Below are positions 1,361 to 48,243 of a stretch of 64,000 nt of DNA, piece after piece (the first letter of the stretch is position 1; each line of letters starts with the position of its first letter). The stretch comes from Narcine bancroftii. Its lineage: Eukaryota. Under the pieces are notes generated by a model. That model searched no databases, was not told the DNA's origin, and saw only the letters and a program-made list of their open reading frames with translations. The position numbers were made by a program, and so were the translations under genes. The stretch is from positions 54,126,001-54,190,000 of the forward strand of contig NC_091469.1 of the NCBI RefSeq assembly GCF_036971445.1, in the 5' to 3' direction.

Positions 1361-2123
1361 TGTCTTGGGTAAACTTATACCTCTCATTTTGTTCATTTTA
1401 GATTGGTCACAGTGTTTGAGCTACCGAAAGAAAATAGACACACACACCGAGAGCAGTTCAGTTTATACAAATGTTTATTACAAATTCAAAAGCTGATTTC
1501 ACACTACAATATGCAAGCCCTTCCCAACTATACTTATCAATGCTTGAACTGGTCCCAACTGCCGAGCGAGGCAACGACTGCACACTTGTAGTAGGTTGTC
1601 AGGGCGCCAGTAGCAGCTTCTCCACCTCCCCTGACCGGGACGTTGCTCAGACTCTGGCTGTTCTTCCTTCTTGACAAGGGGTGTTCCAACCGCTCGGAGA
1701 GTCTAAACTTCAGTAGCAGGACCACAGGCTTATATACCCCAAAAACAATTTATCATGCACCTACTCCTTCTAACATTTGTCAGCCAAAATCAAAACTGAA
1801 CATACTATTCTACAATTTAGAAGATTAATTATTATGGAACCAGGATGTTATGATTTCCTGGTTTATCTCGTAGATACAAAGACTTATTAAAACTTCTCGA
1901 GCAAGACAGGTTGTGACCAATTCATCAATTTCAGAGTGTTGCATTTGACAACTGCTTTCCCTGGGCCTCACAGTGGAATTCCATTTCTTCAGATAAATCC
2001 CCATGGCTGAGTTTAATTACATCTGCTAGTTCTGAAAGTAAGGTGACCTGAGTGTGAACCCAGTGTCGTCAGTTCCACATAAGCAAAAAGCATCTGGGAC
2101 CATGGTTTTAATCCTCCATTACA
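1361..2123 (-). mobile_element. 5' LTR of the ERV (~760 bp)
   Basis: TGT...ACA termini, adjacent to the PBS. Minus-strand TATATAA near 1730 and AATAAA near 1475. Confidence 0.75.
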
Positions 2124-3602
2124 CCAGAATCACAGTGCGACTTTCGCGCAAACAGAGGAACCACTGACATGGTCTTTGCCCTCAGACAGCTCCAAGAAAA
2201 GTGCAGAGAACAAAACAAAGGACTCTACATCACCTTTGTTGACCTCACCAAAGCCTTCGACACCGTGAGCAGGAAAGGGCTTTGGCAAATACTAGAGCGC
2301 ATCGGATGTCCCCCAAAGTTCCTCAACATGATTATCCAACTGCACGAAAACCAACAAGGTCGGGTCAGATACAGCAATGAGCTCTCTGAACCCTTCTCCA
2401 TTAACAATGGCGTGAAGCAAGGCTGTGTTCTCGCACCAACCCTCTTTTCAATCTTCTTCAGCATGATGCTGAACCAAGCCATGAAAGACCCCAACAATGA
2501 AGACGCTGTTTACATCCGGTACCACACGGATGGCAGTCTCTTCAATCTGAGGCACCTGCAAGCTCACACCAAGACACAAGAGAAACTTGTCCGTGAACTA
2601 CTCTTTGCAGATGATGCCGCTTTAGTTGCCCATTCAGAGCCAGCTCTTCAGCGCTTGACGTCCTGCTTTGCGGAAACTGCCAAAATGTTTGGCCTGGAAG
2701 TCAGCCTGAAGAAAACTGAGGTCCTCCATCAGCCAGCTCCCCACCATGACTACCAGCACCCCCACATCTCCATCGGGCACACAAAACTCAAAACGGTCAA
2801 CCAGTTTACCTATCTCGGCTGCACCATTTCATCAGATGCAAGGATCGACAATGAGATAGACAACAGACTCGCCAAGGCAAATAGCGCCTTTGGAAGACTA
2901 CACAAAAGAGTCTGGAAAAACAACCAACTGAAAAACCTCACAAAGATTAGCGTATACAGAGCCGTTGTCATACCCACACTCCTGTTCGGCTCCGAATCAT
3001 GGGTCCTCTACCGGCACCACCTACGGCTCCTAGAACGCTTCCACCAGCGTTGTCTCCGCTCCATCCTCAACATCCATTGGAGCGCTTACACCCCTAACGT
3101 CGAGGTACTCGAGATGGCAGAGGTCGACAGCATCGAGTCCACGCTGCTGAAGATCCAGCTGCGCTGGATGGGTCACGTCTCCAGAATGGAGGACCATCGC
3201 CTTCCCAAGATCGTATTATATGGCGAGCTCTCCACTGGCCACCGTGACAGAGGTGCACCAAAGAAAAGGTACAAGGACTGCCTAAAGAAATCTCTTGGTG
3301 CCATCCACATTGACCACCGCCAGTGGGCTGATAACGCCTCAAACCGTGCATCTTGTCGCCTCACAGTTTGGCGGGCAGCAGCCTCCTTTGAAGAAGACCG
3401 CAGAGCCCACCTCACTGACAAAAGGCAAAGGAGGAAAAACCCAACACCCAACCCCAACCAACCAATTTTCCCTTGCAACCGCTGCAATCGTGTCTGCCTG
3501 TCCCGCATCGGACTTGTCAGCCACAAACGAGCCTGCAGCTGACGTGGACTTTTTACCCCCTCCATAAATCTTCGTCCGCGAAGCCAAGCCAAAGAAAGAA
3601 AA
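2124..3602 (+). mobile_element. RTE-clade LINE, 5'-truncated, young; RT ORF 2169-3542 open
   Basis: RT motifs FVDLTKAFD, GVKQGCVLAP and LLFADD; C-terminal CNRC..H...C finger; short 3' UTR ending GCCAAGCCAAAGAAAGAA. Confidence 0.95.
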
Positions 3603-17952: not shown

Positions 17953-19302
17953 TTGTTGGGGTCTTTCATGGCTTGGTTCAGCATCATGCTGAAGAAGATT
18001 GAAAAGAGGGTTGGTGCGAGAACACAGCCTTGCTTCACGCCATTGTTAATGGAGAAGGGTTCAGAGAGCTCATTGCTGTATCTGACCCGACCTTGTTGGT
18101 TTTCGTGCAGTTGGATAATCATGTTGAGGAACTTTGGGGGACATCCGATGCGCTCTAGTATTTGCCAAAGCAAATACTGTTTACATCCGGTACCGCACTG
18201 TTTACATCCGGTACCGCACGGATGGCAGTCTCTTCAATCTGAGGCGCCTGCAAGCTCACACCAAGACACAAGAGAAACTTGTCCGTGAACTACTCTTTGC
18301 AGATGATGCCGCTTTAGTTGCCCATTCAGAGCCAGCTCTTCAGCGCTTGACGTCCTGCTTTGCGGAAACTGCCAAAATGTTTGGCCTGGAAGTCAGCCTG
18401 AAGAAAACTGAGGTCCTCCATCAGCCAGCTCCCCACCATGACTACCAGCCCCCCCACATCTCCATCGGGCACACAAAACTCAAAACGGTCAACCAGTTTA
18501 CCTATCTCGGCTGCACCATTTCATCAGATGCAAGGATCGACAATGAGATAGACAACAGACTCGCCAAGGCAAATAGCGCCTTTGGAAGACTACACAAAAG
18601 AGTCTGGAAAAACAACCAACTGAAAAACCTCACAAAGATAAGCGTATACAGAGCCGTTGTCATACCCACACTCCTGTTCGGCTCCGAATCATGGGTCCTC
18701 TACCGGCACCACCTACGGCTCCTAGAACGCTTCCACCAGCGTTGTCTCCGCTCCATCCTCAACATCCATTGGAGTGCTCACACCCCTAACGTCGAGGTAC
18801 TCGAGATGGCAGAGGTCGACAGCATCGAGTCCACGCTGCTGAAGATCCAGCTGCGCTGGATGGGTCACGTCTCCAGAATGGAGGACCATCGCCTTCCCAA
18901 GATCGTATTATATGGCGAGCTCTCCACTGGCCACCGTGACAGAGGTGCACCAAAGAAAAGGTACAAGGACTGCCTAAAGAAATCTCTTGGTGCCTGCCAC
19001 ATTGACCACCGCCAGTGGGCTGATAACGCCTCAAACCGTGCATCTTGGCGCCTCACAGTTTGGCGGGCAGCAGCCTCCTTTGAAGAAGACCGCAGAGCCC
19101 ACCTCACTGACAAAAGGCAAAGGAGGAAAAACCCAACACCCAACCCCAACCAACCAATTTTCCCTTGCAACCGCTGCAATCGTGTCTGCCTGTCCCGCAT
19201 CGGACTGGTCAGCCACAAACGAGCCTGCAGCTGACGTGGACTTTTTACCCCCTCCATAAATCTTCGTCCGCGAAGCCAAGCCAAAGAAGAAAAGAAAGAA
19301 AG
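17953..19302 (+). mobile_element. RTE LINE with inverted 5' segment (~17949-18171 on -, 18177-19302 on +)
   Basis: 13-bp TSD AATAGAGTATTCA (17940-17952 / 19303-19315). The inverted part encodes LWQILERIG...DPNNE and the direct part resumes at VYIRYRT. Confidence 0.93.
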
Positions 19303-26402: not shown

Positions 26403-28642
26403 TCTTTGGCTTGGCTTCGCGGACGAAGATTTATGGAGGGGGTAAAAGTCCACGTCAGCTGCAGGCTCGTTTGTGGCTGACAAGTCCGATGCGGGACAGG
26501 CAGACACGGTTGCAGCGGCTGCAGGGGAAAATTGATTGGTTGGGGTTGGGTGTTGGGTTTTTCCTCCTTTGCCTTTTGTCAGTGAGGTGGGATCTGCGGT
26601 CTTCTTCAAAGGAGGTTGCTGCCCGCCAAACTGTGAGGTGCCAAGATGCACGGTTTGAGGCGATATCAGCCCACTGGCAGTGGTCAATGTGGCAGGCACC
26701 AAGAGATTTCATTAGGCAGTCCTTGTACCTTTTCTTTGGTGCACCTCTGTCACGGTGGCCAGTGGAGAGCTTGCCATATAACACGATCTTGGGAAGGCGA
26801 CGGTCCTCCATTCTGGAGACGTGACCCACCCAGCGCAGCTGGATCTTCAGCAGCATGGACTCGATGCTGTCAACCTCTGCCATCTCGAGTACTTCAACGT
26901 TAGGGATGAAAGTGCTCCAATGGATGTTGAGGATGGAGCGGAGACAACGCTGGTGGAAGCGTTCTAGGAGCCGTAGGTGATGCCGGTAGAGGACCCATGA
27001 TTCGGAGCCGAACAGGAGTGTGGGTATGACAACGGCTCTGTATACGCTTATCTTTGTGAGATTTTTCAGTTGGTTGTTTTTTCCAGACTCTTTTGTGTAG
27101 TCTTCCAAAGGCGCTATTTGCCTTGGCGAGTCTGTTGTCTATCTCGTTGTCGATCCTTGCATCTGATGAAATGGTGCAGCCGAGATAGGTAAACTGGTTG
27201 ACCGTTTTGTGTTTTGTGTGCCCGATGGAGATGTGGGGGGGCTGGTAGTCATGGTGGGGAGCTGGCTGATGGAGGACCTCAGTTTTCTTCAGGCTGACTT
27301 CCAGGCCAAACATTTTGGCAGTTTCCGCAAAGCAGGACGTCAAGCGCTGAAGAGCTGGCTCTGAATGGGCAACTAAAGCGGCATCGTCTGCAAAGAGTAG
27401 TTCACGGACAAGTTTCTCTTGTGTCTTGGTGTGAGCTTGCAGGCGCCTCAGATTGAAGAGACTGCCATCCGTGCGGTACCGGATGTAAACAGCGTCTTCA
27501 TTGTTGGGGTCTTTCATGGCTTGGTTCAGCATCATGCTGAAGAAGATTGAAAAGAGGGTTGGTGCGAGAACACAGCCTTGCTTCACGCCATTGTTAATGG
27601 AGAAGGGTTCAGAGAGCTCATTGCTGTATCTGACCCGACCTTGTTGGTTTTCGTGCAGTTGGATAAGCATGTTGAGGAACTTTGGGGGACATCCGATGCG
27701 CTCTAGTATTTGCCAAAGCCCTTTCCTGCTCACGGTGTCGAAGGCTTTGGTGAGGTCAACAAAGGTGATGTAGAGTCCTTTGTTTTGTTCTCTGCACTTT
27801 TCTTGGAGCTGTCTGAGGGCAAAGACCATGTCAGTAGTTCCTCTGTTTGCGCGAAAGCCGCACTGTGATTCTGGGAGAATATTCTCGGCGACACTAGGTA
27901 TTATTCTATTTAGTAGAATCCTAGTGAAGATTTTGCCTGCAATGGAGAACAGCGTGATTCCCCTGTAGTTTGAGCAGTCTGATTTCTCGCCTTTGTTTTT
28001 GTACAGGGTGATGATGGTGGCATCACGAAGATCCTGAGGCAGTTTTCCTTGGTCCCAACAAAGCTTGAAAAACTCATGCAGTTTGGCATGCAGAGTTTTG
28101 CCGCCAGCCTTCCAGACCTCTGGGGGGATTCCATCCATACCTGCTGCTTTGCCACTTTTCAGTTGTTCGATTGCCTTATATGTCTCATCCAGGGTGAGGA
28201 CCTCATCCAGCTCTAGCCTTAGGGGCTGTTGAGGGAGCTGGAGCAGGGCGGAATCTTGGACTGAGCGGTTGGCACTGAAAAGAGATTGGAAGTGTTCTGA
28301 CCATCGGTTGAGGATGGAGATCTTGTCGCTGAGGAGGACTTTTCCGTCTGAGCTGCGCAGCGGGCTTTGGACTTGGGGTTAGGGGCCGTACACAGCCTTT
28401 AGAGCCTCGTAGAAACCCCTGAAGTCGCCAATGTCCGCGCTGAGCTGGGTTCGTTTGGCAAGGCTAGTCCACCACTCATTTTGGATCTCCCGGAGTTTGC
28501 GCTGAAGATGGCTGCATGCGCGACGGAAGGCTTGTTTCTTCTCTGGACAGGACGGCTTTGTAAGGTGAGCCTGGTGGGCAGCTTGCTTCTTTGCCAGCAG
28601 CTCCTGGATTTCCTGGCTGTTTTCGTCAAACCAGTCCTTGTT
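26403..28642 (-). mobile_element. RTE LINE, 5'-truncated, longest copy in the window
   Basis: ORFs 26900-28138 and 26455-27108 are split by a frameshift in a homopolymer run near 27080. NKDWFDEN...NYRGITL...LLFADD...zinc finger. Confidence 0.95.
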
Positions 28643-32815: not shown

Positions 32816-34379
32816 GTAGAGCTGGATGAGATTGAGATTTGGAATGATGGGTCTCCACAGGAGTGAAGATTAACACAGTGTGAGCACATCACCTCACCAG
32901 GTGCTGCAACAACAGGGGAGCTTAATAAAAGCTTGTGAATGGCTGCTTGAAGGATAGTTTTGCTGATGTCAGACACAACACAATCCCCTAGCAAAACATA
33001 GAGCACAGAGAACATATAACAGCACAGCACAGAAACAGTCCTTTTGCTGCACCATGTTTGCGCCAACCATGATGACAATCAATTTAATCCCATCTGCCTG
33101 TACATAGACCATATAACTCTATTGCTTGCTCCTGTGTCTATCTGAATAATTCTTAAATGCTGCCATCCTATCTGCTTCTGCAGCCTCCCCAAGCTGTATG
33201 TATCAGGCACCTACCACTCTATTAGAAAAAACTTTCCTCACACATCACCTTGAAATCTTCCCATTCTCTCCTTAAACCCATACCCTCTAGTATTTTGCAT
33301 TTCCACCCTCAGTGAAAAAAAGACGATATATGCTTCTCATAATTTTATATTGGAAATGAAAGTATACTGTCATTCTCTTTAAATGCACTGAAATTCTTAC
33401 TTGCTGCAGTCAAACAGGTACACAAAATATATCTACTATAATAGTTTACATTAAATTACCACAATAAAAGATAGATATATATTCATATTTGCAATTAGTG
33501 TAATAAAAGGAGTTATATTCCAATAGTGCAAATAAATCCTCAGGTGGTCCTGAAGTACTTTATAATTAGTGTAGGACAGGAACATTCAAGACTTATATGA
33601 ATTGATGAAAATAAAATAAAAATAGCTGGCTCATTCAATATTGACCACTTCCTCTTTCAAGTTGTTGAGAAGAAGAAACCATTAGACCTAACTGTCAAAC
33701 ATTTCTTCCATGGATAAATCCAGCTGGATGTTTCCAGGAACTGCATTTTGTTCTTCACTTACTTCAGGTGAAATAGGATGTGCTCATTGAATTTAAGAAG
33801 CATTCGTGGCTAGGGAGATTAAACAAAAACGTATTGCCTCTGTTAACTTTAGGTGCAATAAACAGATATGCTGGGACCATGTACCATAAAAGTAAAAACA
33901 AGATATTTCCCCATGATATTGTAGGAACTTGTTGTTCAAAATTCAAAGTTCAAATTTAAAGTCAGAGTGTATACATGTTATCACATACAAAACAGAGACT
34001 TCTTTTCCTTATCGGTACCTGTAAACTGCACCCATGAGTAAAGAAATGTATAGAAAAGAAAGAAATGTAAACAAATTGATTCAAATTCAGAAATAGTGAA
34101 ATGCTGGAGAAATTCAGCAAATCAAAGTGAATTCTTTATGTAGCAAAGATAAAGATACATAACCAATCTTTTGGGCCTAAGGCGTCCACCGAGGTATGAG
34201 CAAAAAGCAGACAGATGCCTGAATAATGCTGTGTGACTTTATCCAATATTTTTGTATAAACTACAATCACAGTGTCTACAGGTTTTCTTGTTTACTCAAG
34301 AATTATAAATATTCAGTAATGAATAATGAGGAAAGTTAGAGTCCTTAAATGATTCATTGTAAGAGCCTATTGTTCACAA

Positions 34380-37248: not shown

Positions 37249-37957
37249 CAGTGGTTCTCAACCTTTTTCTTTCCACTCATATACCATTTTAAGAGTTACA
37301 GGGAAAGGTTGTGCAGACTGGGGCTTTTTTCTCTGGAGCGTAGAAGATTGAGAGGGGACTTGATAGAGGTGTTTAAGATTTTAAAAGGGACAGACAGAGT
37401 AAATATGGATAGGCTTTTTCAATTAAGAAAGGGGGAGATTCAAACTAGAGGACATGGTTTAAGATTGAAGGGGGAAAATTATGAGGGGAACATGAGGAGA
37501 AATTTCTTTACGCAGACGGTGGTGGGGATGTGGAATGAGCTTCCAGCAGACGTGGTCGAGGCGGGATCATTGGTTACATTTAAGGAAGACTGGATTGTTA
37601 CATGGATAGGAGGGGACTAGAGGGGTATGGACTGGGTGCTGGTCAGTGGGACTAGGAGGGTGTGGATTTGCTACAGCATGGACTAGTAGGGCCGAACTGG
37701 CCTGTTCTGTGCTGTAAGTGGTTATATGGTTATATGGTATTCCCTATGCCATCAGAGCTCAGTGATGAGTAAGGGATTGCTTAAGGTGGTATCAGGGTGG
37801 AAAAAGAAGGTTGAGAATCATTGTTCTAGACCTAATTGTTATTGAAATATTTTGATCAAGAAAAATTGTCATTGGTCCATTTCCTTTGGACTTATGAAAC
37901 CAAGCACATAATAAGTCAATTAGGTACGATTAAAATGATGGTTTTCAAACTTTTTCC
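37249..37957. mobile_element. Composite hAT MITE (same family as 47884-48243), interrupted by CR1 and truncated by L1
   Basis: TIR CAGTGGTTCTCAACC; sequence colinear with the 47.9-kb copy either side of the CR1 insert. Confidence 0.8.
37294..37737 (+). mobile_element. CR1 3' end
   Basis: LGLFSLERRRLRGDLIEVFKIL; (GTTATATG)n tail. Confidence 0.9.
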
Positions 37958-39080
37958 TGCCTGAATTCTATCGAGAATTTAAGGACTTATTAATGCCTCT
38001 GTATATGGAGGTGGTAGACCAGGCTAGGGGAAGAAGGTCCCTTCTGGAATCTTTTACAGTGGCGATTGTTACAACGATTTTGAAGAAGGGTGAGGATTCG
38101 CTTATGCCCTCTTCCTATAGGTCAATTTCTCTACTGAATACCAATTACAAGATCCTAGCCAAAGCCTTGGCAAATAGATTGGCATTGCATTTGCTGAAAT
38201 TGATAAACAAGGATCAGACAGGCTTTGTCCAGGAAAGAAAGACAGCAGATAATATTGGCAAATTACTGCATGTTATGCATCTGGCACAATCTAGAAATGA
38301 GAAGGGTCTGGCCATTTCCTTGGATGCAGAAAAGGCCTTCGATAGACTGGAGTGGGAATTTTTATTCAAGGTCCTGGAGAAGTCAGGGTTGGGACCAATT
38401 TTTCAAAATTGGATTAGGGCACTATATCACTTGCCCAAGGCAAAAGTTGAAATCAATGGGCAGGTCTCTCCAGACTTCCCACTTAACAGATCTTGTAGGC
38501 AAGGATGCCCACTTCCACCGGCTCTCTTTGTGCTGGCTATGGAACCATTGGCAGAAGCCACTCAGCAGGATCCAGACATCAAAGGTTATAGAGTGAGCCA
38601 GGAGGAACACAAAATTAACTTGTTCGCTGATGACGTACTGATATATTTGACATATCCTGCGACTTCCCTGCCTAGGCTGCACGAGGTACTGGAGGAGTAT
38701 GGAGAACTGTCTGGGTATAAGATCAATTGGAATAAGAGTGAGGTGATGCCACTCACTGGCGATAATTATAATCAATTTAAAGAAATTGAATTTAAAGTGG
38801 CCACAGAAGGGGATCAAATACCTAGGAGTTAATATTGATAGTGACTTGAATAATTTATACGCTAAATTATGCCCGCTTGCTGGGAAGAGTCGAGGAGGAC
38901 TTAAAGAGGTGGATGTCCCTGCCTATCACACTGGTAGGCAGGTCAACTGCATCAAAATGAATGTGTTGCCAAGATTCCAATATCTTTTCCAAACATTGCC
39001 TATGTCGTTGCCCCAGGATTTCTTCAAACAGTTATCACATACAGTTAGGAGGTTTCTTAACTAGGGACAATAATCTAGGC
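37958..39080 (+). mobile_element. L1 LINE ORF2, 5' part (interrupted by the hAT element)
   Basis: SYRSISLLN, LDAEKAFD, CRQGCPL and LFADD motifs; continues at 42440. Confidence 0.92.
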
Positions 39081-39439
39081 CAGGGGTGGGCAATTAGTTT
39101 TCCCAAGGGGCCACATGAGAAGCAGAAAATATTGTGGAGTGCCAGACCAATAGGCTGAACTAAATTATGCTTAATATTAATTCTATCTCTTTATAAAAGC
39201 AATAAATTGCATCATTTTGACAAGATGTGACTGGTAAGAGTAAATGTGATGATTAAGCAATGGAAAATAAGATTAGGAAAAACATCATTTATTCAATCAA
39301 AATTACCCAAAACAATTGTAAACGAAATGTGCATGTTCAGAAATGTACCATTTTTGAAAGACCAGCATTAAATCAGCTTTATACAAATTGTTATTATCAT
39401 TTTGCTTTGTAGTCGAACCACCTCATTTGCTGTTTTTCA

Positions 39440-41160
39440 GTTCTTTTTTCTGGTTCAGTGAGAGAACAAGTGCATCAAAGTTAGGCTGAATGTTTGAGGT
39501 GGATATGCGAAGGACAGCTAACAGATGATCATCAGTGAGAGAGGATCTATACCTGGATTTGTTAAACTTCATCACTGAGAACGTTTGTTAACCTATGTAG
39601 GTAGATCCAAAGAGAACCAACATCTTCTGAGCATGCCTCCTCATATGTGGAAAGTTCTCCTCCTTGAGAGAAGAGTAAAAATCCAGCAGTGATACTGACT
39701 TAAAGTGCTCTGCCAGTATCATATCACATTGTAGGTTGATGAGTTCCAGCTGAACATGACTGGGTGCATTATCCATGCTGCAGGTAAAGGGAGAGGAAAT
39801 CATGTGCATTTCACCCTCAACTGTTTTGAAGTCTTCAAATCATCTTGAAAACTCACCATGCAGTGCTCCTAACATGGATGAGTACCTGCGGAGGTGATCA
39901 GGGTTTGCATGTGAGAGAGAGTGTTGCTCTCCAGTTGGCTTGAAAGAAACTGCAACTTTCTCATGAAAGCCTTCACCAGGCTGTACATTTCATGAACAAA
40001 AAGGCCCCAATGTTGCAGTTTGGTATTTAGTTCTTTCATCAGTGTAGTCACATCAACGGCAAATACAAGATCTGCCATCCATTTCCCATCTGAGAGCTCT
40101 GGTATGTCTTTGCCATTCTTCTCACAAAACTCTTGAATCTCTGCTTTCAGGTCCCAAACACTTTTCAGCACTTTGCCCAGGCTGAGCCATCTTACAGTTG
40201 TGTGGTAACCTATGTCACCATGTTCAATCTCACGCTCCTCCATGAGTGCAACAATCTGTCTGTGATTTAATGCAGGTATCCTGATGAAGTTAACTGTTTT
40301 AGTTTTAACATGGTTAAGTTTTATCACTGACTTACACAACACATTCTGATGTTTGATACAATGTAAGAATACCAATTTCAGTTCTGGGTTGATTTCAGTC
40401 ACCTTATCTTGCATCCATTTCAAAGGTCCAATGTTTATCACCATTAGATTTGGACATCTATCTGTTGTAACACCTGCCAATCTGTCCCATTTCAGTCCCA
40501 ACTTGTCCAGGCATGCATTTACTTCCGTGAACAAATCACTCCCCGTCATCGTCCCTTTCATTGACTGCATTGCCGCCAGCTCCTCCATAATCTTTAAGTC
40601 CTTTGTTATCCCAGAGACAAAGACGAGTAAATGGGCTGTGTCGTGGACATCACAGGTCTTGTCCAAAGCAAAGGAGAAAAAAAAATCAATATTGTCCATT
40701 TTATTTTGCAGCTGAAGCTCCAGATTTCCCGCGATGTCCTCGATCCTTCTTGTCATGGTTCATCTGGAGAGGGGCATGTTCTCGAATGCTTCTTTATTCT
40801 TGAGGCATATTAGCACTGCAGAGTCCACTCTTCGATGAACACTCCCTCAGAGAATGACTTACTGTTGTTAGCGATTTTGTAGGATATCACAAAGCTGATT
40901 TTGGCTGCTGCATCCCTGGATGTATGAAGCCTTGTTGCTTTTGCAGAATAGCTAGCAAAGCTTCAGATGTCTGTATCCATTCAGAATCAGTCAGGTTTTT
41001 GTATTTCTCCGTGTGTTTAGTCTTGTAATAGCGATTGAAATTATAGTCCTTAAACACGGTGATCTGCTCTCCATAAACTAAACACATGACTTTACCTCTG
41101 ACTTCAGTAAATAAATACTTAATAGTTTGCATCAATCTTTATTTTTTAGCAGGAGCGAAC
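39440..41160 (-). pseudogene. hAT transposase pseudogene (GTF2IRD2-like)
   Basis: Degenerate BED-like N-terminus (KYLFTEVRGKVMCLV..RYYKTKH), FALDKTCD, TTDRCPNL, LHCIKHQ, VRWLSLG and LFGSTY motifs, with frameshifts and stops. Confidence 0.9.
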
Positions 41161-41239
41161 ATTTTTGTGGGCTAACACTCGTAAACTTGTAAACTGAGTA
41201 AAGGTAAAGGTGTGCGCATGCATGGATTTATATATGTAA

Positions 41240-41722
41240 GCTCTCTCTCTCTCCCTCTCTCTCCTTCGCCCTCTTTCTCACTTATTCTTTCCAATCCACC
41301 ACCCTCCCTCCCTCTCCTCTCTCTCACCCATTCTTTGCAATAGATTTCTCCCTCCCTCTTCTCTCCCTCTGCATCTCTCACCGATCACTTTCACCCACAG
41401 TCTCCCCCACTCCATCGCCCTCACACACTTTCCCTCTCACCCTCATTCCTCCCACTCTACCCATGTTGTTTTACTCACCCCATTTTCCCCTTCTCTCTTC
41501 CATCTCTCGATCTCCCCTCTGCGAGTTTATTTTCTTATCTAATAATCAATAACTTTATTTTCATTTTGTACTGTCCAAGACCCTGCCGAACTCCCTATCG
41601 TTCTCTCTCGCTCTCTGTGCTCCTGCAAACCCTTTGATATCTCCCCTCTCTCTCCTCGATCTCTCTCCTCTCCCTGCCAATCTCCCTCCACCAATCACAC
41701 TCTCCCTCCTTTTCTCTCACTC

Positions 41723-41778
<56 letters not shown>

Positions 41779-41785
41779 TCCCTCT
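41240..41785. repeat. CT-rich low-complexity tract with pure (CT)n at ~41728-41774
   Basis: Directly visible. Confidence 0.9.
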
Positions 41786-41993
41786 ATTTAAATTAAACAC
41801 TCCGATTTGCCATATTAACCAATAGCATTTGGGAGTCGGAGAAGTGAGCTCTCCCTCAGACGTCATATGAATTAGTGCCAACCTCTTCCACAAGCCCCAC
41901 CTCTCAAGCTTCTGACTGACATTTCCGCCCTTGGTGCAAAGGCACCTGTTCCCCTGCCACTGTTCCCGCCCTACTTCACCGCTGCGATGGGGA

Positions 41994-42032
41994 TGTTTTT
42001 GTAGGGCCTCATTGACAGCTCGTGCTGCCGTG
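41994..42032 (-). promoter_or_regulatory. Recombination signal sequence, 23-bp spacer
   Basis: Minus strand: heptamer CACGGCA (42032-42026), spacer GCACGAGCTGTCAATGAGGCCCT (exactly 23 nt), nonamer ACAAAAACA (42002-41994), directly after the V coding end. Confidence 0.92.
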
Positions 42033-42335
42033 TAGACTCCAGGCACAAAGATACAGGGCCAAGAGGGCTGTGCTCAGGTCAGCGGACTTCAATATAAACA
42101 GGTTGTCGCCCGGTCTCTCTGCAGACAAACCGTTTACAGTTACCCTTTGGTCCACGTGATCTCTGACCATGGAGTAAAACAGGTTATGAGGCCCCTTCCC
42201 GGGGTCCTGTCGATACCAGAACATTCTGTTGGTGCTGCTGCTTCCCTTCACTGTATACTGCAGCTCCATTCTGTTCCCAGGCCATTCAGAAACCACGGCT
42301 GGAACCTGGATGACAGTAACCCGGGCCCGATACCC
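42033..42335 (-). pseudogene. TRBV: T-cell receptor beta-like V exon (orphon; no leader, first Cys replaced by Tyr)
   Basis: Open frame VTVIQVP...MELQYTV...MFWYRQDPGKGPHNLFYS...LSAERPGDNLFILKS...ALYLCAWS followed by a 23-RSS. CAWS and LFYS recall the TRBV30-like type. TAT at 42255-42257 occupies the Cys23 position. No splice acceptor or leader upstream. Confidence 0.88.
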
Positions 42336-42439
42336 GGTACCCATTCACCCATTATCTAGTCCTTATGCGGGCCAGTCAGGGACACCCAAAGGGCTGGATG
42401 TAGCCCGGGGATCATACATTGTCCAGGTCTGGTCCAGGC

Positions 42440-47883: not shown

Positions 47884-48243
47884 CAGTGGTTCTCACCTTT
47901 TTCTTTCCATTCACATACCACTTTAAGTAATCCCTATGCCATTGGTGCTCTGTGATTAGTAAGGGATTGTGAGTGGGAAGGGAAGGTTGAGAATCACTGC
48001 TCTAAATCTAATTTTTACTGAAATATTTTCCTTGAGAAAAATTGTCATTGGCCCATTTCCTTTGGAGTTAGGAAACTGTGCATGTCACGAGTCAATTAGG
48101 AACGATTAAAACACTGGTTTTCAAACTTTTTCTTTCCACTCTCGTACCACCTTAGGCAATCTCTTACTAATCACAGAGCATCTATGGCATAGGGAATACT
48201 TAAAGTGGTATATAAGTGGAAAGAAAAAGGTTGAGAACCACTG
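47884..48243. mobile_element. Composite hAT MITE
   Basis: Outer TIRs CAGTGGTTCTCA / TGAGAACCACTG; inner TIR-like copies at ~47985-47999 and ~48112-48126. Confidence 0.85.

What the first reader, a model, noticed from the sequence alone, without database searches (positions are those of the whole stretch)
41994..42032. Well-formed 23-RSS outside any visible antigen-receptor locus: potential ectopic RAG substrate
Seen: CAC-starting heptamer CACGGCA, exact 23-nt spacer and nonamer ACAAAAACA (8/9 consensus). I found no D, J, C or second V in the 64 kb by eye. Established: RAG needs the CAC, the spacer length and the A-rich nonamer, and pairs a 23-RSS with a 12-RSS. Inference: if the carrier transposon is multicopy, the genome is seeded with near-consensus RSSs that could support trans-rearrangement or lymphocyte translocations.
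Basis: partly seen in the sequence, partly recalled or inferred. Interest (0 to 1): 0.7.

Follow-up and report, generated by a model that had tools for sequence, protein, structure and literature searches.

The report
Transposon spread a T-cell receptor piece
The recombination signal is real but not stray: it belongs to a T-cell receptor beta V segment that sits inside a cut-and-paste DNA transposon at five separate places in this genome, where the signals are decaying and are likely unused, so the case shows one route by which immune gene pieces leave their home locus.

Summary
The 23-RSS is there as described (41994-42032, minus strand). It is the native signal of a TCR-beta V exon (42320-42033), and both lie inside a 3,351-bp hAT transposon (42431-39081) with inverted ends and an 8-bp target duplication. 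Five V-bearing copies lie on four contigs; a sixth, truncated copy keeps only the cargo's end. About 45-50 family copies exist (estimate), most without cargo. The donor is the TRB locus at G000:C5:140.0-140.15 Mb. The five V exons form one clade (100/99) and share one 5' junction: one capture, likely by microhomology-guided template switching, then transposition. The cargo lacks leader, acceptor and promoter. The window's V has lost Cys23; the other four have stops or frameshifts. Only 3 of 5 copies keep CAC, and the RSS core changes no more slowly than flanking DNA. The window's RSS still scores like native TRB signals, so RAG could likely cut it in a test tube, but nothing shows use in vivo. 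Verdict: a multicopy Pack-TIR whose cargo is an antigen-receptor V plus RSS; ten literature searches found no such case. The translocation idea is weak.

The parts
42432..42439 (-). Left target-site duplication (8 bp)
   Evidence: 6 of 8 letters match the right copy
42361..42431 (-). hAT 5' end, 71 bp, with the terminal inverted repeat at 42431-42419
   Evidence: Shared with cargo-free copies; imperfect 13-bp inverted match to the 3' end
42321..42360 (-). 40-bp filler from the TRB locus, about 500-600 bp downstream of some V exons; holds an in-frame ATG at 42344
   Evidence: 87-90% matches at C5:140,063,140 and 140,077,557; present in 5 of 5 V-bearing copies
42033..42320 (-). TCR-beta V region, open frame, first cysteine changed to tyrosine, no leader or splice acceptor
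41994..42032 (-). Native 23-RSS of the V
41243..41993 (-). TRB intergenic DNA downstream of the V (about 750 bp, GA-rich)
   Evidence: 67-77% matches to several V-V spacers; collinear with the unit at C5:140,080,606
39081..41242 (-). hAT backbone with a frameshifted transposase (about 41163-39400) and the 3' inverted repeat at 39093-39081
   Evidence: 72-77% identical to fish GTF2IRD2-like/hAT proteins; hits in several frames
39073..39080 (-). Right target-site duplication (8 bp, TA in the middle)

Best explanation
The RSS is the native signal of a TCR-beta V exon that lies, with about 1.1 kb of TRB-locus DNA, inside a hAT DNA transposon at five sites; it was likely captured once by template switching during repair, spread by cut-and-paste, and is now likely a silent, neutrally decaying orphon. 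Shown: the cargo sits 71 bp inside the element, comes from the TRB V cluster, shares one 5' junction, and the copies have different target duplications. Inferred steps: (1) a break in one hAT copy was repaired from the TRB locus with at least three switches (hAT to filler, filler to V start, spacer back to hAT); (2) this form transposed, and the C11 copy keeps it with the whole hAT sequence; (3) a deletion removed the cargo's last 100 bp or so and 127 bp of hAT, giving the form seen in the window and three other copies; (4) the copies were methylated and have decayed since the family's single burst.
For: Element ends and 8-bp duplications: 24 of 31 copies examined had both ends, mean 6.25/8 identity, 17 of 24 with central TA; 4 of 5 V carriers have their own duplication at 5-7/8. 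Five V-bearing copies in four searches of G000; 3 of 30 backbone loci fetched carry the V. Donor locus with 33 V-like hits, 2 D, 4 J and C; contigs of three runs splice its C exons at GT..AG. No hAT backbone in 400 kb around the donor. The five V exons are one clade, 100/99, sister to the locus V at 140,076,782 (86/87). Junction microhomology: AGG at the 5' end, GGTTAA at the 3' end. Non-CpG change in V 59/1146 (0.051) equals flank 45/856 (0.053); backbone copies 2.8-6.0% non-CpG from the family majority, the window 3.7%. CpG observed/expected 0.48 in the window's cargo against 0.80-0.85 in three locus V units. Four of five V exons have stops or frameshifts; the fifth lost Cys23.
Against: Carrier backbones do not form a clade in a star-like tree: the AU test rejects one clade for six carriers (p 0.011) and is borderline for the five V carriers (p 0.051). 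The truncated copy shares 12 variants with a cargo-free copy, so cargo may also move between backbones by recombination. V exons show a mild excess of synonymous change at non-CpG sites (24 of 60 against 0.27 expected, p 0.02-0.03), while the transposase control is neutral (0.237 against 0.258); unexplained. No locus V is over 79% identical, so the exact donor is not in hand. One carrier (C5:316.3 Mb) has lost its 5' end, so its duplication could not be read.
Confidence: 0.85

Rival explanations
1. The window copy is an active ectopic RAG substrate that joins at measurable frequency to DJ-beta or to a nearby 12-RSS and adds receptors or translocations.
For: The RSS scores like native signals and its heptamer is used by open-frame locus V segments. 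The window V frame is open with an in-frame ATG. A 12-RSS-like site lies 7.7 kb away (34247-34274). Two carriers with CAC lie on the TRB chromosome, 176 and 193 Mb away. Low-frequency cryptic RAG events outside receptor loci are reported in mouse thymocytes (bioRxiv 10.64898/2026.09.01.748595, abstract).
Against: No leader, acceptor or promoter; Cys23 lost; CpG decay. RSS not conserved across copies. The 12-RSS-like site has a 0.23 chance per window and no J frame. RAG off-target activity is described as bounded by the loop domain (PMC4995090, abstract); human chromosome-9 TRBV orphons served as negative controls in repertoire data (PMC4657264, passages).
Confidence: 0.06
2. One capture, but the cargo spread mostly by gene conversion or gap repair between resident hAT copies, not by transposition of the loaded element.
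For: Carrier backbones are not one clade; the truncated copy's backbone is sister to a cargo-free copy 5 Mb away (97/97).
Against: The tree is a star with 3 of 29 inner branches well supported; the cargo copies are as diverged from each other (81-87% identical) as expected for the burst's age, with no young pairs; five V carriers are not rejected as a clade at 0.05.
Confidence: 0.12
3. The V was retro-copied from a germline transcript or moved by segmental duplication and only lies among transposons by chance.
For: The V starts exactly at the V-region boundary and lacks an intron; a leaderless V+RSS orphon among LINEs is known in opossum (PMC2275272, passages).
Against: A spliced transcript would carry the leader exon, which is absent; the 40 bp before the V come from downstream DNA; no poly-A or separate duplication around the cargo was seen; shared sequence among carriers stops at the hAT ends.
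Confidence: 0.02

Closest known systems
Multicopy Pack-TIRs of animals, e.g. Pack-hAT-N8_XT with the CAPSL 5' UTR and Ssk-FB4 (Tan et al. 2021, PMC8277862; abstract, sections 8 and 9, passages, part of Supplementary Data 1)
   Same: Host DNA inside a TIR transposon, copies on several chromosomes with distinct target duplications, far from the parent, microhomology at breakpoints.
   Different: The cargo is an antigen-receptor V exon with its RSS; the carrier is a full-length, transposase-coding hAT; at least three switches and a second, deleted sub-form. The paper found only four multicopy cases among 370; its main text never mentions immunoglobulin, T cell receptor or shark, and its table has no shark row but gives coordinates, not gene names.
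TCR/Ig orphons: opossum TRMV-OR2 (PMC2275272, passages) and human chromosome-9 TRBV orphons (PMC4657264, passages)
   Same: V plus RSS outside the locus, non-functional; TRMV-OR2 also lacks a leader.
   Different: For TRMV-OR2 transposition was only suggested from flanking LINEs; here the vehicle, both junctions and five insertions are seen.
Cryptic RSSs as off-target RAG sites (PMC12711392, PMC5203794, bioRxiv 10.64898/2026.09.01.748595; abstracts)
   Same: An RSS-like site outside receptor loci that RAG could in principle cut.
   Different: This is a displaced true RSS, not a chance look-alike; no use is shown.

Membership tests
23-RSS | Heptamer starting CAC, 23-nt spacer, A-rich nonamer | tested here: met
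23-RSS | Abuts the 3' end of a V coding region | tested here: met
23-RSS | Passing RIC score | not testable with these tools
   No RIC model on hand; a species matrix was used instead
23-RSS | Cut by RAG with a 12-RSS partner | not testable with these tools
   Needs an assay
hAT DNA transposon (Buster/Charlie group; group name recalled) | Short terminal inverted repeats | tested here: met
   10 of 13 letters match between the family's two ends
hAT DNA transposon (Buster/Charlie group; group name recalled) | 8-bp target-site duplication with central TA | tested here: met
   24 of 31 copies read, mean 6.25/8, 17 of 24 with TA
hAT DNA transposon (Buster/Charlie group; group name recalled) | hAT transposase | tested here: met
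   Homologues at 72-77% identity, many with PF05699; the 296-aa piece alone gave no Pfam hit
Autonomous hAT element | Intact transposase frame | tested here: not met
   Hits in frames -3, -2, -1 and -3
Multicopy Pack-TIR (PMC8277862) | Non-TE host DNA between the element's ends, with a parent copy free of the TE | tested here: met
Multicopy Pack-TIR (PMC8277862) | Same chimeric structure, distinct target duplications | tested here: met
   5' junction in 5 of 5; duplications in 4 of 5
Multicopy Pack-TIR (PMC8277862) | No cargo-free TE at the orthologous site of an outgroup | not testable with these tools
   No related genome is held
Multicopy Pack-TIR (PMC8277862) | Clonal descent of loaded elements | tested here: inconclusive
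   Cargo one clade; backbones unresolved, AU p 0.051 for five, 0.011 for six
Functional TRBV gene (features recalled from IMGT rules) | Leader exon, intron and splice acceptor | tested here: not met
Functional TRBV gene (features recalled from IMGT rules) | First Cys, conserved Trp, second Cys | tested here: not met
   First Cys is Tyr; Trp and second Cys kept
TRBV orphon pseudogene (definition recalled) | V of a TRB subgroup outside the TRB locus | tested here: met
   C1 against donor on C5; 63-71% amino-acid identity to four open locus V segments

The most novel reading that the evidence does not exclude
A hAT transposon served as a germline vehicle for a recombination-competent V-RSS cassette: the three copies that keep CAC are still cut by RAG and join to DJ-beta or local 12-RSS sites at low frequency, and the same route can carry V segments between antigen-receptor loci, as needed for the chimeric TCR/Ig arrangements of cartilaginous fish.
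Probability: 0.08. Interest if true: 0.78.

Novelty: new variant of a known kind. Interest (0 to 1): 0.45.

Why it matters
How V segments come to lie outside their loci is mostly inferred from neighbours (for example flanking LINEs at opossum TRMV-OR2). Here the vehicle, both junctions, the donor unit and five insertions are all readable, so it is a direct case of DNA-transposon capture making antigen-receptor orphons. The five copies also form a natural experiment: one RSS, five independent decays, testable side by side for RAG cleavage. It does not show any effect on the repertoire or on lymphocyte genome stability. Earlier unchecked notes report other Pack-hAT captures in this genome, so the V may be a chance cargo.

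Tried and rejected
Expression: no RNA holder was listed for 41700-42434. Contigs of three same-species runs (X1-X3, one study, RNA status guessed) laid at 90% likeness left 41541-42387 without cover, although the same runs cover the TRB constant exon at depth about 700-1,100 with spliced joints; contigs show presence, not absence, so this is not counted as evidence. Protein database search with the V found no candidate (short query, word-based). A junction pattern search gave 12 hits: 4 known carriers and 8 others that do not match the element; 7 of the 8 match one another as an unrelated repeat. The 12-RSS-like site at 34247-34274 has no J frame and is within chance. A donor hAT beside the TRB locus was sought in 400 kb and not found. 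My first leader-exon search found nothing because it asked for 13-20 codons; the leader is 12 codons and was read by eye. The first backbone tree kept CpG columns and gave V/non-V pairs, most of which lost support without them. Literature: ten searches; searches returned nothing, and no listing described transposon capture of a V segment; subscription papers and Repbase/Dfam were not searchable. In Tan et al.'s supplements six V-gene names gave 0 hits, but I saw only rows 1-97 and the 12 human rows of 370, and rows carry no gene names. Whether the element lies in a host gene's intron was not determined. Age in years was not calibrated.

Full report
Observation. Window 41994-42032 on the minus strand reads CACGGCA, 23 nt, ACAAAAACA. 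The loose motif is close to chance: 2 in the window against 0.4 in 60 Markov resamples, about 20,800 per genome by extrapolation. Its context makes it real. The 288 nt before it (42320-42033) encode a V domain whose best solved relatives are TCR-beta V chains (Pfam V-set). On a matrix from 19 distinct 23-RSSs of this genome's TRB locus it scores 22.2 bits against a native leave-one-out median of 21.5; the next of 1,755 CAC sites in the window scores 10.8.

The donor. Searches of G000 (3.33 Gb) place 15 of 20 DNA matches in one cluster at C5:140.04-140.10 Mb. In 400 kb fetched there I found 33 V-like hits, two D segments with 12- and 23-RSS, four J segments, a constant exon and a transmembrane exon; contigs of three public runs splice the constant exons at GT..AG. 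This is the TRB locus. Two of its open-frame V segments use the same heptamer as the window. Earlier unchecked notes call the animal a ray; I did not test that.

The carrier. The V and RSS lie in a 3,351-bp element, 42431-39081 on the minus strand, with imperfect 13-bp inverted ends and a 6/8 target duplication. It codes a frameshifted transposase 72-77% identical to fish GTF2IRD2-like/hAT proteins. A backbone search scored 40 of 50 candidate places. Fourteen of 16 exact matches to the empty junction fall in places already listed, which suggests about 45-50 copies. Of 31 copies examined, 24 had both ends, with mean duplication identity 6.25/8 and central TA in 17. Thirty-two backbones form a star, 2.8-6.0% from their majority at non-CpG sites: one old burst.

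The loaded copies. Five copies carry the V: C1:54.17 Mb (window), C5:316.33, C5:332.84, C8:85.67 and C11:204.78. A sixth, C1:77.91, is 5'-truncated and keeps only the cargo's end. Shared sequence stops at the hAT ends, and four of five have their own duplication. All five share one 5' junction, 71 bp inside the element, and their V exons form one clade, 100/99, sister to the locus pseudogene at 140,076,782. No hAT backbone lies in the 400 kb around the donor.

Anatomy of the capture. The cargo is a patchwork: 40 bp from about 500-600 bp downstream of a locus V, then the V region starting at its first codon after the leader part, then RSS and V-V spacer, collinear with the unit at 140,080,606 once a later 4.6-kb insertion in the locus is set aside. 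The C11 copy keeps the longest form: its cargo ends about 150 bp before the next V's leader and rejoins the hAT exactly where it left. The window, both C5 copies and the truncated copy share a deletion of about 100 bp of cargo end and 127 bp of hAT; the C8 copy is deleted through this part. Donor and hAT share AGG at the 5' junction and GGTTAA at the 3' junction. This fits template switching followed by transposition, the model proposed for multicopy Pack-TIRs (PMC8277862, sections 8 and 9); the switching itself is inferred.

Fate. The cargo has no leader, acceptor or promoter. The window's V is open but its first cysteine is tyrosine; the other four have stops or frameshifts. Three copies keep CAC (scores 22.2, 21.6, 19.0), C8 has CCC, and C11 lost the heptamer. 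Heptamer plus nonamer changed in 10 of 76 cells against 76 of 994 in the flank (p 0.12), so the signal is not protected. Non-CpG change in the V (0.051) equals the flank (0.053). CpG observed/expected fell from 0.80-0.85 in locus units to 0.48, which points to germline methylation after the move (inference).

Results against this reading. Carrier backbones are not a clade: AU p 0.011 for six and 0.051 for five; the truncated copy shares 12 variants with a cargo-free copy, so recombination between copies is likely there. The V exons show a mild synonymous excess at non-CpG sites, 24 of 60 against 0.27 expected (p 0.02-0.03; 0.03-0.12 with CpG sites included), while the transposase control is neutral. 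I cannot explain it; it sits badly with four broken frames and a lost cysteine.

RAG use. The window's RSS likely remains cleavable, since it matches native signals. Use in vivo is unlikely to matter: RAG off-target activity is reported as confined by loop domains (PMC4995090, abstract), human TRBV orphons behave as negative controls in repertoires (PMC4657264, passages), and the only good 12-RSS-like site nearby (34247-34274) is within chance, p 0.23. Rare cryptic events outside receptor loci do occur in mice (bioRxiv 10.64898/2026.09.01.748595, abstract), so a trace cannot be excluded.

Comparison and novelty. It works like, and meets the tested features of, a multicopy Pack-TIR; Tan et al. 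found four multicopy cases among 370 and name no immune-receptor cargo in the main text. It is also an orphon like opossum TRMV-OR2, where transposition was only suggested. Ten searches of the held library found no report of a DNA transposon carrying a V segment with its RSS; subscription papers and repeat databases were not covered. PMC12227049 (passages) ascribes chimeric shark genes such as NARTCR and TAILV to tight clustering and trans-rearrangement, so the transposon route is a rival idea there, not an established one. Verdict: new variant of a known kind, interest 0.45.

Noticed in passing
G000:C5:139,889,000-140,147,000: Unannotated TRB locus: 33 V-like hits in three groups, a block of V segments on the minus strand (140.028-140.059 Mb), a four-V block present twice (139.89 and 140.00 Mb), two D, four J, one C. 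Many of the window-type V segments are pseudogenes, and they are CpG-rich (o/e 0.80-0.85).
   Followed up: partly
window 39400-41163: The decayed transposase is 72-77% identical to proteins of teleosts and about 72% to frog proteins, high for a dead element; horizontal transfer is possible but was not tested.
   Followed up: no
G000:C1:77,907,044-77,909,407 (L052): 5'-truncated copy with the cargo's last 165 bp; its backbone shares 12 non-CpG variants with a cargo-free copy at C1:82.97 Mb (L067), likely a recombinant.
   Followed up: partly
window 34247-34274 (-): 12-RSS-like site (heptamer 6/7, nonamer 7/9), same orientation as the 23-RSS, 7.7 kb away; no J frame; chance 0.23 per window.
   Followed up: yes
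window 37249-37823 and about 47884-47999: Two small elements with inverted ends beginning CAGTGGTTCTCA, resembling SPIN/MER20-type hAT MITEs (names recalled).
   Followed up: no
window 2112-3542, 18128-19234, 26455-28378, 37939-38832: LINE reverse-transcriptase frames; the first three belong to one young family (about 93% to copies elsewhere).
   Followed up: no
L028 and L021 (C11:204.79 Mb, C5:316.32 Mb): The same young 2.4-kb repeat (97-99% identical) sits in two carrier backbones about 175 bp apart in element coordinates, apparently independent insertions.
   Followed up: no
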